Positions 12,863 to 18,299 of a DNA stretch of 26,432 nt are shown here, one piece after another. The notes below the pieces were generated by a model. The model saw only the letters and a program-made list of their open reading frames with translations. It ran no database searches and was not told the DNA's origin. Where the stretch lies: assembly GCA_038064745.1 (NCBI GenBank), contig JBBTSL010000045.1, forward strand, positions 1,291 through 27,722, in the 5' to 3' direction. This stretch comes from Patescibacteria group bacterium (lineage in GTDB: Bacteria; Patescibacteriota; Patescibacteriia; Magasanikbacterales; GWA2-37-8). A program made the translations under genes and the position numbers. How positions within the stretch are numbered: the first letter of the stretch is position 1; each line of letters opens with the position of its first letter.

Positions 12863-13807
12863 ATGTCGTACTTTAGCGAAGTAGCATCTGTTTTTAGTGA
12901 CGATTTTCCGTTGGTGACAACAAATGAGGAATTGGCTTTGCAAATAAACGCGAAAACTGATTGCGATTTATCATATGTTTCGTCAGGATGCATTGAGGAA
13001 AGAAAGAGAAAAATAGATGCACTCTGGCCTGCATTTAAGCCGTATGCTGATAAAGAATTTTTGAAAGGTATTCGGGTCAACTTTGATCAAAGGTGTTGGG
13101 AGATGTATTTGGCGAATATTTTTACCGATCACTTTGACATTTCATCAAGTGTAAAAAATCATGGTCCAGATTATGTTCTAGATGACAGGATCTGTGTTGA
13201 AGCGATTGCGTGTAAGCGAGGAGAAAGTCCGAACGGTGTTCCTGAACTTTACATAACAAACCCCACTGAAGATAAGCTTTTGTTTGTAGATACGATTCCA
13301 GAGGACAAAATGATTCTCAGGATCACCCATGCAATTCACGAGAAGTACGCGCAGTACAGTCGGTGGCTATCGAGTCTTACATCAGTAAACGAAAAGTCAC
13401 CATTGGTGATCGCGGTAAACACAGGCGGTTTGGGATTTCCTAGCCCTGGAGATTTACCGCTAGTTTTGAAACCTTTATTCGGAATCGGTCACAGACAGTT
13501 CCGAAAGGAAGCAGGACGTTTAGTAGATAGTGGATGGAGCGGTCGTCCCACTATCAGTAAAAATAATGGTACGCAGATCGATGCATGCTTCTTTGAAGAT
13601 CAAAAATACGCAGCCATAAGTGCCGTTTTGTTTTCAGAGACGCGAACCTTAGATCACTCATCGCATATCGGAGAGGATTGTATCGTGGTTCATAATCCGA
13701 ATGCGAAAAATCCAATTGATCAAAAGGTTTTCTCTTTTCTCGACCAATGGATTGAAGCAGGAGAAAGTATCGTACATCGACCAGCTGAAATTAATCAAAC
13801 TTTTTAG
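12863..13807 (+). CDS. hypothetical protein, restriction-endonuclease-like fold
   Basis: FDQRCWEMYL, GPDY...CVEAIA (PD...E), ISAVLFS...HNPNAKNP; 314 aa; 36 nt after DUF2779. Confidence 0.6.
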   Translation: MSYFSEVASVFSDDFPLVTTNEELALQINAKTDCDLSYVSSGCIEERKRKIDALWPAFKPYADKEFLKGIRVNFDQRCWEMYLANIFTDHFDISSSVKNHGPDYVLDDRICVEAIACKRGESPNGVPELYITNPTEDKLLFVDTIPEDKMILRITHAIHEKYAQYSRWLSSLTSVNEKSPLVIAVNTGGLGFPSPGDLPLVLKPLFGIGHRQFRKEAGRLVDSGWSGRPTISKNNGTQIDACFFEDQKYAAISAVLFSETRTLDHSSHIGEDCIVVHNPNAKNPIDQKVFSFLDQWIEAGESIVHRPAEINQTF

Positions 13808-14252
13808 GCAGTGAGATTCCACCTTGTACCTTCGGCATTGTTCCTACCATGAAGTGATTCAGTGTTGTCTTTATCGCTCGGTGGTTGCCGAGGATGACGA
13901 CGATATTTTTCTGATCGAGAAGCTTTGCGTCGATAATCATCTGCACGCGCTGATTTGAGGCGAGGAAAAATGGATTTGTCCGATCTATCGAGCCGAGTTC
14001 GCACATCTCCTCGCTATTCGGCACCGTGCACCACTGTAATTTTGTTTTGCTGAATATCGCTGCGTAGTTTAATCGGCGATTCGCGGACGTGATAAATGCG
14101 AGAAATCCGCCGTTGCAACGAAACAGTGTAGTCGTCACAACTGCCTCGGTCGGTACGTCGAGCACCTTCGCGATTTCGTCATATTCTCCCTCTGCCATGA
14201 CGGGTAAGTCGATCACGTCGAGGTCTATTTTGAGTTCGAGTTCGTTATTCAT
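13791..14252 (-). CDS. YbaK/ProX (tRNA-editing) fold protein, degenerate
   Basis: EIAKVLDVPTEAVVTTTLF...RRLNY...EEM..LG....NPF...QMIIDAKLL....VVILG matches YbaK spacing. ATG 14252 preferred over 14273. Confidence 0.6.
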   Translation of the reverse strand: MNNELELKIDLDVIDLPVMAEGEYDEIAKVLDVPTEAVVTTTLFRCNGGFLAFITSANRRLNYAAIFSKTKLQWCTVPNSEEMCELGSIDRTNPFFLASNQRVQMIIDAKLLDQKNIVVILGNHRAIKTTLNHFMVGTMPKVQGGISLPKKFD

Positions 14253-14359
14253 ACACGACAAGTAATGCCACATGGGTTGGGGTTGTCTAGTCTTAAAACC
14301 CTTGAAAAGCTCAATAAGTACAAGGATAAGGAAGGAAGAGAAGGAGTTGGTAACCAGAC

Positions 14360-14388
14360 TTCACTTTGGGTGGTTTGTAAGCTATACT
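14360..14388 (+). promoter_or_regulatory. putative sigma70 promoter
   Basis: TTCACT (14360-65), 17-nt spacer, TATACT (14383-88); predicted start near 14394-95 coincides with the first base of the long RNA stem. Confidence 0.45.
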
Positions 14389-14393
14389 TTCTC

Positions 14394-14532
14394 TGTCTAG
14401 GTTCGACCTCCTTACAGGGGCATGTTTTGCCTATCCGGATCGCACGCAATAAGCGGCATCCGGTTAAAACGACACTCGTACGATCCGTACGGGGGTCGGG
14501 CCTAGACACCACCGGGTGTCGCTTTTTGTTTT
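14394..14532 (+). ncRNA. candidate structured ncRNA or attenuator leader of unknown class
   Basis: 18 contiguous pairs 14394-14411:14491-14508 (3 G.U); internal hairpins 14418-32 and 14435-63; alternative hairpin 14470-98; terminator-like GACACC-ACCG-GGTGTC followed by a U-rich tract to 14532. Confidence 0.55.
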
Positions 14533-14570
14533 AGCAACATCGCGGGGTTCTAATCCCTAACCACCCGCGT

Positions 14571-15104
14571 ATGTCGCAAACGACAAATACTTCGGTGACG
14601 AAGAAGCAACCCATGAGTTGGATGAAGAAGTTCGTGATTGGTTTATCAATCTTTCTTGTCGGATCGCTAGGATTCCTCGTCATCATTACTCCAAAAGTAC
14701 CGGAACTCACCCCGGAACAGAAGACCGTAATCGAAGCGGAAAAGTTAGCAACGAACGCCCTACTTGATTCCTTCATCGTATCCACGAAGATCGAAAATAA
14801 TTCCATCGGCATTCCAGAGCTTCACATGGTGGTGAAGAACACTTCAGAGAAGACCATGGACGGTATCGAGATCACGGCAAGTTTTTACAACAACTTTGAC
14901 GAACCTGCTGGTGAATGGGGTGACCCGAACGATAACTCTCTCCTCGTAAGATCACAGGACGTGATTGCGCCGGGTGACTCGGAACCGATGTATTGGAACC
15001 TCACCGCCTTCAGTGGAGCGACGAAGGTTACGAAGGCGAAAGTAATTCGCGTGCATTACACGGACGGCACAGAAGTCACAAGGCAATACCCCTCAGAGGA
15101 TTGA
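14571..15104 (+). CDS. single-pass membrane protein with FxLYD/DUF3426-like Ig-fold domain
   Basis: N-terminal TM segment (FVIGLSIFLVGSLGFLVII), then VVKNTSEKTMDGIEITASFYN...IAPGDS pattern. Confidence 0.65.
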   Translation: MSQTTNTSVTKKQPMSWMKKFVIGLSIFLVGSLGFLVIITPKVPELTPEQKTVIEAEKLATNALLDSFIVSTKIENNSIGIPELHMVVKNTSEKTMDGIEITASFYNNFDEPAGEWGDPNDNSLLVRSQDVIAPGDSEPMYWNLTAFSGATKVTKAKVIRVHYTDGTEVTRQYPSED

Positions 15105-15126
15105 TCGATGAACAGCATCGCATCAT

Positions 15127-15666
15127 ATGCCAATCCTCGACTCAGTACCCATTCCAGAACGTAACATGCTTTTTCGACGGTGGTCTGGCGTGCCAATCAA
15201 TCACACGTTCGGAAATAAAGGTTTGATTGATATCGACGGCAAACCGATGTTCGCCGAGCTGGCTATCGCGGAAACCATGAAACGAGACGGCTATGAAACG
15301 CGATGGGTTGAGGTGTACGGACGAGGAAATAAAGAACCGATTTATCTCACGCAGTGGAAAGATGCGCCATACAAAGATCAGATAAACATGCCAATTCAGG
15401 AACGATGGATTACGGATACTTTGGCTGGTATTGCGAGGCTGAATAACAACTCATACAAAGGTTGTTGGGATGTTCTTGCGTGGAAGGACGGCAAACTATT
15501 ATTCGTCGAGTCGAAACGCAAAAAGCGCGATTCTGTGCGAGGATCACAGATCGCTTGGCTCGAGGCAGGTTTAAAATACGGGCTCACTCCTGACAACTTT
15601 CTAATCCTACAGTGGGACTTCGAGGACGCTCGACCCCGGCTATCACTTTCTCAATCTCACACTTGA
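15127..15666 (+). CDS. VRR-NUC domain nuclease
   Basis: GCWDVLAWKDGKLLFVESKRKKRDSVRGSQIAWL matches the VRR-NUC PD-(D/E)xK pattern. Confidence 0.8.
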   Translation: MPILDSVPIPERNMLFRRWSGVPINHTFGNKGLIDIDGKPMFAELAIAETMKRDGYETRWVEVYGRGNKEPIYLTQWKDAPYKDQINMPIQERWITDTLAGIARLNNNSYKGCWDVLAWKDGKLLFVESKRKKRDSVRGSQIAWLEAGLKYGLTPDNFLILQWDFEDARPRLSLSQSHT

Positions 15667-17094
15667 TCTGTTGAAGACCTTTTCAAACCCGTAGGTGACC
15701 GCAACCACGAAGGCATCCATCAGATCATCGTGCTTTTCGAATCCGAACCCAACAATCTGGGTGATAAGTTCCTTTGCACCTGTATTTGGGAAGAGAATAT
15801 TCCCATCACGGATTCTTGGAGAGATCAAGTTCAGTCGCGTACGCTTATCAACGTTTCCGACGCTGAATCCGTCAGCCTTGCATCCTGTCTTTTGGAGTGC
15901 TTCAATCAGGACTCGTTGATACGTAACGTCTTCCACCGCAATAATGACGTAATATTGCTCGTTGTATTCGTTATACAGATGTACGAGTGTGTCGATTTGT
16001 TCTGTGAATCCCATCCGTTTATTGATGATTGGATTCGTGACAAGGACCTGAGGTTTTTCACGATTACCCATAACAATTACCGGAACCATTGCCGTGTAGT
16101 CCGCCGTTTCCTTGTCTGATACCGCGAGGTCAACGCCAATAATCATGGCTGGTCTGTCCGATCTCGGAGCCACGTACAGTAATTCGTCCGGATATCGCTG
16201 TATCCAATCCAACTGAACGACTCGCTCAAGGTCGGAGACAATCTTGAGTAGATATTCCATCGACCACGCGACTTCATCAACGATCTTTTTTCTGAGTTCT
16301 TCGATGTCCTCCTGTGTTTTGTATTTTCCAGGCCATAACGGTTTTCCTTCCTTATCGAGGAGAGGATATTCCACCACTTTTCCTGTTCGTTCATTTTTCT
16401 CAATCTCTTCCTTGATCCGACTGATGAGCGAATCTTCGTGGAGCAAGTTTCCAACGACTACGATGTTCGTCTTTGTGTCGCCAACTGGAATGAGATCGCG
16501 GGTAAACCACTGGTAGGTTTTTTGACGTGACTCGCGCGTCTTTACCGATGCCAAATCTTCGATGTCGTCGCAGATAATGAGATCGGGACGATTCGCTCCG
16601 TGGCGCAATCCGCGTACGCTTTGGTCAAGTGATATGGCAGTTATCCTCGCGCCGAACTTCGGTATAACGAGTGATCCCGAATTCCACTCCTCATCGTGTT
16701 CAGTGAATGGTCCGAGATCGTCACGGAGCAAGGCATTATTTTCCATTTCACGCCGAATGTTTTGTAGATGGAACCGCGCCTGTGCTTGTGTTTGGCAAAC
16801 GATCAGCACGAACTTCTTTTGCTGTATTCCGAGGATCGACCACAGGGCGAGCGACATCGTGCAAATCGTGGACTTTGCTGAGCCACGGAACGCCAAAACG
16901 ACGAGCATTGCGTAATCCTGCTCGGTCAGGCTCAGGAGTTCTTTCTGGAATGGCGCGGTCTCGCAAGTGATGTATTCCGAGAAGTAGACGTGGAAGAAGT
17001 AGAAATGACTTTTTGCCGTCAGCCCCGTTCGGAATCTTCTGTCCGTTCGCACCCGCCCCATGATGTTATTCAGACTCTCCGTTTCCGTTTTCAT
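15643..17094 (-). CDS. terL: phage terminase large subunit
   Basis: Walker A AFRGSAKST, Walker B IICDDIED, nuclease acidic residues IGVDLA, AVED, HDDLMDA. ATG 17094 preferred; 17121 possible. Confidence 0.9.
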   Translation of the reverse strand: MKTETESLNNIMGRVRTDRRFRTGLTAKSHFYFFHVYFSEYITCETAPFQKELLSLTEQDYAMLVVLAFRGSAKSTICTMSLALWSILGIQQKKFVLIVCQTQAQARFHLQNIRREMENNALLRDDLGPFTEHDEEWNSGSLVIPKFGARITAISLDQSVRGLRHGANRPDLIICDDIEDLASVKTRESRQKTYQWFTRDLIPVGDTKTNIVVVGNLLHEDSLISRIKEEIEKNERTGKVVEYPLLDKEGKPLWPGKYKTQEDIEELRKKIVDEVAWSMEYLLKIVSDLERVVQLDWIQRYPDELLYVAPRSDRPAMIIGVDLAVSDKETADYTAMVPVIVMGNREKPQVLVTNPIINKRMGFTEQIDTLVHLYNEYNEQYYVIIAVEDVTYQRVLIEALQKTGCKADGFSVGNVDKRTRLNLISPRIRDGNILFPNTGAKELITQIVGFGFEKHDDLMDAFVVAVTYGFEKVFNRSSVRLRK

Positions 17095-17515
17095 AGGGAG
17101 CAATCTCACTTGAAATAACATTTCCGAGGGTCAGCGCACGACCAATCGCTTCTTCCTCTTCCTGCGTAAGCGGACGATCAACGCGAACGCTGGCGTTCAG
17201 GTCAACGCGCGTTCCGTAGGCGCGGTGGCGGTGCTTGAGCCAAAATGTAATCGCGCCGAGGTTGCCGTTTCGAATCATGCTGATCATGTGACTTTCCGCC
17301 ATGTCGCTCACGAGCGAATTGCCCTCGATGATCGCCTGTTGTGACTGCACATGGAAATCATCGTCGTCTTTGAGCCAGCGATAATATGTTGCGCGACCGA
17401 TACCGACCTTTTCGCATGCGACCTGCACAATAGGCGTACGTTTCAATTGTTCAACCATCTCGCCCTTCTTGTCGTCCTGGCGTTCGACGACCTTACTTGG
17501 TACTTGTTTTTTCAT
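17066..17515 (-). CDS. HTH protein, probable terminase small subunit
   Basis: IVQVACEKVGIGRATYYRW HTH followed by helices ending AITFWLKHR; overlaps the 5' end of terL. ATG 17515 (TTG 17527 possible). Confidence 0.75.
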   Translation of the reverse strand: MKKQVPSKVVERQDDKKGEMVEQLKRTPIVQVACEKVGIGRATYYRWLKDDDDFHVQSQQAIIEGNSLVSDMAESHMISMIRNGNLGAITFWLKHRHRAYGTRVDLNASVRVDRPLTQEEEEAIGRALTLGNVISSEIAPYENGNGESE

Positions 17516-18299
17516 ATGCGTTTTCAATCAGTTTTGCTTTGATTCCTGTTTTGTCCTCGAACCGTTTGATAATCGTTGCAATGTATTCGGGTTCGATCTC
17601 GATCCCAAAACACCGTCGTCGCGTATCTTCGCAAGCTATGAGCGTTGATCCGCTTCCAAGGAAGCCGTCATATACAACATCATGGATACTTGAACTATTC
17701 ATAATGAGTCGTCGCAAAAGTCCCGTCGGTTTGACCGTAGGGTGCATCTTGGAACTCGAGGGCTTCGGATAGATCAGGATCGTCTTGTCTTTGGATTTCA
17801 TGAACTTGTGCGTGCCATACCATCCGTATGCAATTAGCTCGTGCTGAGGGAGGTAGTCCATGCGACCAATGACCGCGTGCGACTTCGCCCAAATAAGAAG
17901 CTGGGTAAACTTGAACCCCGCATCGAGGATGCCTTCGCGCATGGCAAAGATCATCTTGTCCGAGTTGAAGATGTAGTACGCGTTCTTCGGTGTAAGATGA
18001 TGTTTAATCGGCTCAAGCCAATCCTTCGTAAACTTCCGATACTCTTCGTCGGACTGCGCGTGGTCGTTCAGAATAATCTTTTCTTTGCCTAGCTTCTGCT
18101 TGAACCCAGCCTTACTTTCCACATACGCGCACCCGTATGGGGGATCATTTACAAGTAGGCTGGCACGATCTTTTCCGAAGAGCTTATCTACGAGTTTTGT
18201 GTCTCGTGAATCCCCGTAGGCAAGCTTATGGTTTCCAAGGACAAAAATGTCCCCGAGGTTAATTGATGCGCTTTGCTTTTTGGTTGGTGAGTTTTTCAT
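17493..18299 (-). CDS. N4-C/N6-A DNA methyltransferase (beta class)
   Basis: NDPPYG precedes HPTVKP and YDGFLGSGST (motif order IV then I). Confidence 0.92.
   Translation of the reverse strand: MKNSPTKKQSASINLGDIFVLGNHKLAYGDSRDTKLVDKLFGKDRASLLVNDPPYGCAYVESKAGFKQKLGKEKIILNDHAQSDEEYRKFTKDWLEPIKHHLTPKNAYYIFNSDKMIFAMREGILDAGFKFTQLLIWAKSHAVIGRMDYLPQHELIAYGWYGTHKFMKSKDKTILIYPKPSSSKMHPTVKPTGLLRRLIMNSSSIHDVVYDGFLGSGSTLIACEDTRRRCFGIEIEPEYIATIIKRFEDKTGIKAKLIENAYEKTSTK

What the first reader, a model, noticed from the sequence alone, without database searches (positions are those of the whole stretch)
14394..14532. Unrecognised two-state structured RNA between a promoter and a terminator
State A: an 18-bp closing stem (14394-411:14491-508; the 3 G.U pairs favour + strand RNA) enclosing two hairpins, which occupies GACA of the terminator's 5' arm. 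State B: a 13-bp hairpin (14470-98, one mismatch) plus the terminator GACACC-ACCG-GGTGTC-GC-TTTTTGTTTT. AAAACGACAC (14466-75) can also pair with 14516-26. The mutually exclusive helices suggest a riboswitch/attenuator for the downstream membrane protein and VRR-NUC genes, or a ~140-nt sRNA. I do not recognise it as a known family.
Basis: partly seen in the sequence, partly recalled or inferred. Interest (0 to 1): 0.7.

Follow-up and report, generated by a model that had tools for sequence, protein, structure and literature searches.

The report
Shape-switching RNA leader before defence genes
A conserved 140-base RNA with its own promoter and terminator, not in any RNA family library, can fold in several mutually exclusive ways and sits directly before swappable anti-phage genes in mobile islands of ultra-small bacteria, so it most likely gates their transcription.

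Summary
Window 14394-14533 (+) folds far better than shuffles (z -5.2). Its 18-bp closing stem is kept in about 40 homologues, with compensating changes at 15 of 18 pairs. Rfam 15, ARAGORN and phage BLAST find nothing known.

It is not a housekeeping RNA. It occurs in only 1-3% of sampled Patescibacteria genomes. It always has the same place in a TerS-TerL mobile island: conserved promoter, RNA, U-tract, then 8-53 nt later a promoter-less cargo gene, then a convergent terminase gene. The cargo varies: GmrSD, type IIG and type III restriction-modification, PDC-S26, an Ltp-like lipoprotein, small membrane proteins.

I found a third layer:
- Segment X pairs either with Y or with Z.
- Y pairs either with X or with the terminator's 3' arm, right up to the U-tract.
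- Three- and four-way coupled covariations support these alternatives, including in divergent members found without the biased pattern.
- The alternative folds are nearly equal in energy.

Best reading (about 0.55): a cis-acting, multi-state transcription attenuator of unknown trigger. Main rival (about 0.28): a stand-alone small RNA with a programmed refolding pathway. No transcript data exist. The scan's first readers had noted look-alike stretches in four other genomes.

The parts
14360..14388 (+). Sigma-70-like promoter (-35 at 14360-65, -10 at 14383-88). The predicted start falls on the first base of P1.
   Evidence: Both hexamers and their spacing are conserved in nearly all homologous loci.
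14394..14533 (+). The RNA element as a whole, from the predicted start to the end of the U-tract.
   Evidence: Fold z -5.2. Covariance models R1 and R2 find about 40 homologues at 67-157 bits.
14394..14411 (+). P1 5' strand. It pairs with 14491-14508.
   Evidence: 15 of 18 pairs have changes on both sides and 96.5% of cells are paired. The conserved G.U pairs fit only + strand RNA.
14419..14431 (+). P2 hairpin, with a variable stem and a mostly U-rich loop.
   Evidence: a hairpin of 4-8 bp at this place in 30 of 31 distinct variants, with different letters.
14435..14447 (+). Segment X. It pairs with Y (hairpin P3) or with Z.
   Evidence: X:Y and X:Z both keep pairing through compensating changes.
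14453..14463 (+). Segment Y. It pairs with X or with T3' (14512-14522).
   Evidence: Y:T3' is paired in 100% of cells. Compensating changes are seen in L125 and L126 and in L129 and L130.
14464..14476 (+). A-rich linker. Its 3' half mimics the inner P1 5' strand and pairs with the inner P1 3' strand in the extended P4 hairpin.
   Evidence: three-way covariation of the P1 5' strand, the P1 3' strand and the linker.
14477..14491 (+). P4 core hairpin. Bases 14477-14487 are segment Z, which pairs with X as an 11-bp helix with a conserved C.A mismatch.
   Evidence: The X:Z helix was not part of the model that made the alignment.
14491..14508 (+). P1 3' strand. Its inner part is shared with the extended P4 hairpin and its last 4 bases with the local terminator's 5' arm.
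14505..14533 (+). Local terminator hairpin (14505-10:14515-20), segment T3' (14512-22) and the U-tract (14523-33).
   Evidence: The outer 3 pairs of the local hairpin follow P1 and are not compensated. The hairpin is lost in L130 while Y:T3' is kept.
14534..14570 (+). Short leader between the U-tract and the cargo start codon. It is too short for a promoter and is partly conserved even before unrelated cargo.
14571..15666 (+). Cargo slot of this copy: a 177-aa membrane-anchored protein and a 179-aa protein with no family match.
   Evidence: In other loci the slot holds defence or exclusion genes.
15643..17527 (-). Convergent TerL (15643-17121) and TerS (17066-17527), which bound the cargo slot.
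   Evidence: PHROGs. The same order is found in 13 or more loci.

Best explanation
It is the 5' leader of the cargo slot of a TerS-TerL mobile island of Patescibacteria, and it works as a multi-state transcription attenuator. A conserved promoter starts transcription at the first base of P1.

The terminator's 3' arm (T3'), which abuts the U-tract, has two possible 5' partners: the local arm just upstream, and the distal segment Y. Each partner can be masked. The local arm is masked by the outer end of P1. Y is masked by X, in hairpin P3. Each mask can in turn be removed. P1 is blocked when its inner 3' strand is held in the extended P4 hairpin. X is taken away from Y by Z.

This gives three folds:
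- The pseudoknotted fold (P1, X:Z, Y:T3') also ends it there.

Shown: the helices, their mutual exclusion, their covariation, their near-equal energies and the conserved gene order. Inferred: which fold terminates, that the cargo depends on read-through, and that some unknown factor tips the balance. That factor could be a protein, a small molecule, an RNA or transcription speed.
For: - Every helix is supported across 35 distinct homologues. X:Z, Y:T3' and the outer part of extended P4 were not fitted by the model that made the alignment.
- Coupled covariations mark single positions that keep two or three partners. X55, Y63, Z86 and T3' position 10 flip together. So do X53, Z88 and the P4 3' strand. 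The P1 5' strand, the P1 3' strand and the linker also covary three ways.
- Divergent members found by covariance model rather than by pattern keep all the pairings. L129 does so with almost wholly different letters. L130 compensates two T3' changes in Y but not in the local arm.
- For the window, the folds lie within a few kcal/mol: -61.5 against -50.4 plus a -19.7 duplex less a pseudoknot penalty. The 31 homologues of alignment A4 behave alike.
- Every locus with enough flank has a same-strand ORF 8-53 nt after the U-tract. The scan finds no second + strand promoter in the window.
- The cargo is unrelated between loci, while the promoter, the RNA and part of the leader stay the same.
- The RNA is about 80-90% identical where the neighbouring TerL is 38-48% identical.
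Against: - There are no transcript data. No RNA run holds the stretch, so the start, the end and any read-through are unproven.
- No conserved unpaired pocket stands out. The junctions and the P3 loop vary, and only the A-rich linker is conserved, so a small-molecule sensor is not indicated.
- The local hairpin and Y:T3' should both terminate, so the RNA could simply be a robustly terminated sRNA.
- One locus (G044) has an extended -10-like site in a longer spacer, so some cargo may have its own promoter.
- Most homologues came from a pattern that fixed the core of Y and T3', so the invariance of those letters is partly by construction.
- The sequences are related, so the shuffle controls overstate the support.
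Confidence: 0.55

Rival explanations
1. It is a stand-alone ~140-nt small RNA of the island. The local hairpins are a co-transcriptional pathway that secures termination. After release the RNA refolds into its mature long-range form (P1, X:Z, Y:T3'), with the 3' end tucked in. The RNA then acts in trans or binds a protein. Cargo expression would be mere leakage or come from elsewhere.
For: - It has its own conserved promoter and a U-tract.
- The helices split cleanly into a local set and a long-range set.
- Both partners of T3' give helices next to the U-tract.
- The RNA is much more conserved than any neighbouring protein.
Against: - The cargo ORFs start 8-53 nt after the U-tract, with no room for a promoter.
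- The leader up to the start codon is partly conserved before unrelated cargo.
- No convincing complementary target was found elsewhere in the window.
Confidence: 0.28
2. It is a ligand-binding riboswitch in the strict sense. A small molecule stabilises one fold, for instance the pseudoknotted three-way junction, and so sets cargo expression.
For: - A terminator-type expression platform with alternative pairings.
- A pseudoknot that involves the terminator arm.
- Near-equal energies of the folds.
- No known family matches.
Against: - The cargo has no common metabolic theme.
- The junctions and loops that could form a pocket vary between homologues.
- The sequence conservation is explained by the multi-partner helices alone.
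Confidence: 0.12
3. It is a DNA-level element: a recombination, packaging or replication site made of inverted repeats next to the terminase genes.
For: It lies in a mobile island beside TerL and TerS and several serine recombinases.
Against: - Conserved G.U pairs in P1 and Y:T3' would be A.C mismatches on the other strand.
- The - strand folds worse.
- Covariation keeps RNA-type pairing, and the promoter and U-tract frame the element exactly.
Confidence: 0.03
4. It is the lineage's divergent version of a universal RNA such as SRP RNA or 6S RNA.
For: RF00169 finds no SRP RNA in this genome or in 60 relatives. No 6S RNA is found in this genome.
Against: The element is present in only 2 of 101 relatives, 2 of 151 phylum-sampled genomes and 5 of 151 class-sampled genomes. 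It is absent from same-genus genomes searched. It lies inside a mobile island and is sometimes present in two copies.
Confidence: 0.01

Closest known systems
Terminator/antiterminator attenuators and riboswitch expression platforms (trp-type, T-box, ON-type riboswitches)
   Same: A promoter-proximal leader, an intrinsic terminator-like end, upstream segments that compete for the terminator's partners, and a promoter-less gene just downstream.
   Different: - No match to any Rfam family, no leader peptide and no recognisable aptamer pocket.
- The 3' arm has two alternative 5' partners, one local and one 50 nt upstream.
- Each partner has its own mask and counter-mask, giving at least three folds.
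- The regulated genes are interchangeable cargo, not one pathway.
hok/sok-family mRNA folding pathway (my knowledge: Gultyaev, Franch and Gerdes 1997)
   Same: Coupled three-way covariations show that one position keeps several partners. Local metastable hairpins compete with a long-range 5'-3' closing helix.
   Different: There is no small toxin ORF, no antisense RNA gene and no sign of 3' processing. Here the switch bears on a terminator rather than on a ribosome site. The likeness lies in the kind of evidence and in the folding logic, not in ancestry.
Immunity leader and CI RNA of satellite phage P4, and C4 RNA of P1/P7 (my knowledge; Rfam C4 family not matched)
   Same: A satellite-type element in which a structured leader RNA, with internally repeated complementary segments, governs premature termination.
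   Different: No Rfam C4 match. No evidence of processing or of action in trans. The genes downstream are defence cargo, not the replication operon.
Defence hotspots of P2-like phages and P4-like satellites (PMC9122126)
   Same: A variable slot of anti-phage genes at a fixed place next to the packaging region of a phage-related element.
   Different: Those hotspots are defined by flanking protein genes and the cos site. There the systems were tested under their native promoters. Here a conserved structured RNA with a shared promoter heads the slot, and the hosts are Patescibacteria.
Lambda PR' - 6S transcript - tR' with Q antitermination (my knowledge)
   Same: A constitutive promoter makes a short terminated transcript unless termination is overcome, which then opens the downstream genes.
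   Different: No Q-like gene was identified, the RNA itself carries alternative folds, and what lies downstream is cargo rather than the late operon.

Membership tests
Any Rfam 15 family | Covariance-model score at or near the family's gathering threshold | tested here: not met
   Window at gathering score: only a tRNA at 78-149. Region 14200-14700 at E up to 10: only chance snoRNA/miRNA matches far below threshold. Twelve homologous loci: tRNAs only.
tRNA / tmRNA | Cloverleaf or tmRNA architecture recognised by ARAGORN | tested here: not met
   only tRNA-Asn at 78-152.
Bacterial SRP RNA / 6S RNA | Present once in essentially every genome of the lineage, with a conserved domain IV or central bubble | tested here: not met
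   No RF00169 or RF00013 match. The element occurs in 1-3% of the sampled genomes only.
Intrinsic-terminator attenuator | GC-rich helix ending 0-2 nt before a U-tract | tested here: met
   The local hairpin ends 2 nt before the U-tract. The Y:T3' helix ends at the U-tract.
Intrinsic-terminator attenuator | Alternative pairing that competes for a terminator strand, conserved in evolution | tested here: met
   P1 against the local 5' arm. X against Y. Z against Y for X. Linker against the P1 5' strand. All are supported by covariation.
Intrinsic-terminator attenuator | Downstream gene depends on read-through | tested here: inconclusive
   ORFs start 8-53 nt after the U-tract and the scan finds no promoter between. 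Transcription was not observed, and G044 has a longer spacer with a possible promoter of its own.
Riboswitch | Conserved ligand-binding aptamer and demonstrated ligand | not testable with these tools
   No conserved unpaired pocket is evident. Binding needs bench work.
phi29-type packaging RNA (pRNA) | Rfam pRNA model, a phi29-type packaging ATPase without TerS, and complementary loops for ring formation | tested here: not met
   No Rfam match. The island has classical TerS and TerL. The loop-to-strand complementarity is explained within one molecule.
P4 CI / P1 C4 antisense RNA | Rfam C4 model; processing from a leader; pairing in trans with targets in the same operon | tested here: not met
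   No Rfam match. No convincing trans target in the window. Processing cannot be tested here.

The most novel reading that the evidence does not exclude
The RNA is a sensor that switches on whatever anti-phage or exclusion gene is plugged in behind it. It would respond to a signal of infection or of helper-phage activity: a small molecule, a phage protein or a phage RNA. That would make it a portable, RNA-based induction module for defence cargo in satellites of ultra-small bacteria, and the first structured-RNA regulator dedicated to a defence hotspot.
Probability: 0.15. Interest if true: 0.9.

Novelty: new variant of a known kind. Interest (0 to 1): 0.7.

Why it matters
If true, three things follow.

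- It adds a well-supported structured RNA family from the Candidate Phyla Radiation, where almost no regulatory RNAs are known and nothing can yet be tested genetically.
- It is an unusually clear natural case of a multi-state RNA. Coupled three- and four-way covariations show several exclusive folds kept by selection, which makes it a good model for co-transcriptional folding.
- It suggests that defence and superinfection-exclusion genes in these islands are expressed through one shared, exchangeable promoter-leader cassette. That gives a sequence handle for finding cargo slots, and hence new defence genes, in metagenomes. It also raises the question of what signal controls them.

Tried and rejected
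- Known families: Rfam at gathering score and at E up to 10, and ARAGORN, found nothing.
- Phage GenBank records (blastn, distant mode): no match.
- Housekeeping RNA idea (SRP, 6S): rejected on distribution.
- Leader peptide: the ATG inside P2 is not conserved, for instance in L091.
- Y:T3' as an antiterminator: I held this reading first. I dropped it because the helix runs right up to the U-tract, and because L130 keeps it while losing the local hairpin.
- Trans targets: an 11-mer complementarity scan of the window gave only scattered matches of the number expected by chance.
- Expression: no RNA holder is listed. The two runs guessed to be RNA held nothing on the stretch. The DNA runs only showed many variants that share the RNA core with unlike flanks.
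- TerL-guided retrieval from IMG/VR: six loci at 45-52% identity, none with the RNA within the DNA held.
- Chance pattern hits that the model rejected: L006-L012, L014, L080, L083, L085, L104, L128.
- Searches of the orders of G267 and G303 added no further members.
- Pairing of the leader with T3' after read-through: present in only 13 of 36 distinct loci, so left as a side note.

Full report
OBSERVATION. Bases 14394-14533 of the + strand lie in a 297-nt gap. On one side is a - strand gene for a YbaK-like (tRNA_edit) protein (13791-14273). On the other is a + strand gene for a membrane-anchored protein (14571-15104). The + strand folds at -62.2 kcal/mol, z -5.16, and none of 200 shuffles does as well. 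The - strand folds at -54.1, z -3.55. A sigma-70-like promoter (14360-88) would start transcription on the first base of P1. A hairpin (14505-20) plus a T-run closes the element. Rfam 15 gives nothing at gathering score in the window, nothing but chance matches at E up to 10 around the element, and only tRNAs in twelve homologous loci. ARAGORN finds only tRNA-Asn at 78-152.

WHERE IT LIVES. The window belongs to a 0.94-Mb, 98% complete genome of the size typical of Patescibacteria. The surrounding DNA is a mobile island:
- three serine recombinases, an S24 repressor and several DNA methylases;
- a PLD-SNF2 helicase with an MmeI-like methylase;
- TerS (17066-17527) and TerL (15643-17121) on the - strand.
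I confirmed only the terminase calls and the gene order.

HOMOLOGUES. BLAST among 60 relatives found one homologue, in another family of the same order (G044). A covariance model built from these two sequences (R1) found no other in 100 relatives. This, together with the same-genus genomes lacking it, rules out a housekeeping RNA.

Pattern scans of IMG/VR, of 185,579 species genomes and of JGI metagenomes followed, each filtered with the model. They gave 34 true members. The rebuilt model R2 found more by scoring alone, in samples of the phylum and the class (2 of 151 and 5 of 151 genomes, counts including G000) and in second copies. These are L121, L123-L126, L129 and L130.

The named hosts are Magasanikbacteria, Uhrbacteria, Parcubacteria and 'Patescibacteria group'. 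Several MAGs are labelled Gammaproteobacteria, but their genomes are 0.9-1.1 Mb, so I doubt the label.

CONTEXT IS CONSERVED, CARGO IS NOT. In 13 or more loci with enough flank the order is the same: RNA, then 0.7-4.6 kb of + strand genes, then convergent TerL, TerS and methylases. TerL is only 38-48% identical between most of these loci (about 81% in the closest relative, L087). The RNA scores 110-157 bits and is about 80-90% identical.

Upstream, conservation stops about 75-150 nt before the RNA. Both promoter hexamers are conserved.

Downstream, every locus with flank has a same-strand ORF that starts 8-53 nt after the U-tract. These ORFs are unrelated to one another. They include:
- GmrSD-type restriction enzymes;
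- a type IIG restriction-methylase and type III Mod methylases;
- PDC-S26 PD-(D/E)XK proteins and HSDR_N proteins;
- an Ltp-type lipoprotein;
- many small membrane or lipoproteins.
From the start of its translation, read by eye only, the cargo of L125 looks like a cytosine methylase.
So the RNA heads a slot for defence and exclusion cargo. This resembles the hotspots next to the packaging region of P2 and P4 (PMC9122126).

STRUCTURE: MORE THAN TWO STATES. On 35 distinct sequences (alignment A5) the helices fare as follows.
- P1: 96.5% of cells paired, and 15 of 18 pairs change on both sides.
- P2: a hairpin in 30 of 31 variants, with different letters.
P3 pairs segment X (14435-47) with segment Y (14453-63) and is 99% paired.
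In the outer part the A-rich linker pairs with the inner P1 3' strand. It is 89% paired, against 34-45% when slid, and 9 of 12 pairs change on both sides.

Two further helices were not in the models that aligned the sequences.
- X pairs with Z (14436-46:14477-87): 11 bp with a conserved C.A mismatch, and five (A5) or six (A3) of the ten counted pairs change on both sides.
- Y pairs with T3' (14453-63:14512-22). T3' is the terminator's 3' arm plus the two bases that reach the U-tract. This helix is 100% paired.

COUPLED COVARIATIONS. Single positions keep several partners.
- X55, Y63, Z86 and T3' position 10 flip together in L125 and L126.
- X53 covaries with Z88, and Z88 also covaries with the P4 3' strand.
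- The P1 5' strand, the P1 3' strand and the linker change in step.
- L129 keeps P1, P2, X:Y, X:Z, P4 and Y:T3' with almost entirely different letters.
- L130 changes two adjacent letters of T3' and compensates both in Y, but not in the local 5' arm. Its local terminator hairpin is therefore lost while Y:T3' stays.

Caveats:
- Most members were found with a pattern that fixed the core of Y and T3'.
- The alignment was fitted to P1, P3 and the P4 core.
- The sequences are related, so the shuffle controls overstate the support.
The arguments for X:Z, Y:T3' and the outer part of extended P4 rest on unfitted columns, and for Y:T3' on the members found by model.

ENERGETICS. For the window:
- the nested fold with P1 (14 bp), P2, P3 and the local terminator is -61.5 kcal/mol;
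- with extended P4 it is -60.5;
- the transcript cut before T3', with full P1, is -60.4;
- P1, P2 and X:Z with Y and T3' left free is -50.4, to which the Y:T3' duplex adds -19.7 before a pseudoknot penalty.
The same near-equality holds in the 31 homologues of alignment A4.

HOW IT MOST LIKELY WORKS (inference). T3' can pair with the local arm or with Y, and either helix ends at or within 2 nt of the U-tract. By what is known of intrinsic termination, any duplex that forms there releases the transcript (my knowledge: Yarnell and Roberts 1999). So both should terminate.

Extended P4 blocks P1, and Z removes X from Y. Either event restores termination. What shifts the balance is unknown.

A leader peptide is excluded, because the ATG is not conserved. 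No conserved pocket suggests a small ligand. The cargo shares no metabolic theme, which points to a signal tied to the island or to infection.

The main rival is a stand-alone sRNA whose local hairpins are only a folding pathway to a mature pseudoknotted form. The short, promoter-less and partly conserved leader argues against it, but nothing here excludes it.

COMPARISON AND NOVELTY. It works like a terminator/antiterminator attenuator. The evidence for alternative folds is of the kind that revealed the hok mRNA folding pathway (my knowledge). It is not a member of any curated RNA family tested.

The scan's first readers had noted look-alike stretches in four other genomes, one of them before a GmrSD gene. 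These notes are unchecked, but they fit what I find.

I rate it a new variant of a known kind: a new RNA family with an unusually layered switch, used as a shared expression cassette for defence cargo in mobile islands of Patescibacteria.

Noticed in passing
whole genome G000 and 60 relatives of its order: The Rfam model for bacterial small SRP RNA (RF00169) finds no match at E up to 0.01 in any of 61 genomes, several of them closed, while it rings in 12-13 of 14 control genomes. The SRP RNA of this order may be too divergent for the model.
   Followed up: partly
window 14262-14300: A block conserved in many loci about 100-150 nt upstream of the RNA. Read on the - strand it looks like a promoter placed only about 10 nt before the start codon of the divergent gene, which would give a nearly leaderless mRNA.
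   Followed up: partly
window 14322-14337: A purine-rich block about 60-75 nt upstream of the RNA start is conserved in most loci. It could be an UP element or a regulator's site.
   Followed up: no
window 14534-14570 and the same place in other loci: In 13 of 36 distinct loci, a 5-mer 7-16 nt into the stretch after the first run of T can pair with the last five bases of T3', with G.U pairs allowed. L130 changes both sides together. Often a second copy of the T3'-like letters lies just before the start codon. The cargo start codons lack an obvious Shine-Dalgarno sequence.
   Followed up: partly
window 14505-14511 with gene 13791-14273 (-): The four bases after the last G-C pair of P1 read like a tRNA 3' end (discriminator plus CCA) in most members but not all. 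The divergent neighbour in several loci is a YbaK-like aminoacyl-tRNA editing-domain protein. A link is pure speculation.
   Followed up: no
A nuclease-like motif can only be seen by eye.
   Followed up: partly
L082, L084, L086, L087, L090, L091 (genomes G393-G397): MAGs labelled 'uncultured Gammaproteobacteria' that carry the element have genomes of 0.9-1.1 Mb, so the labels are doubtful. G395 and G396 each carry two copies of the RNA on different contigs.
   Followed up: partly
L091 and L086: In these two loci a TerS-like gene and the methylases follow the cargo, but no TerL match was found between them. The island may exist in forms without TerL.
   Followed up: no
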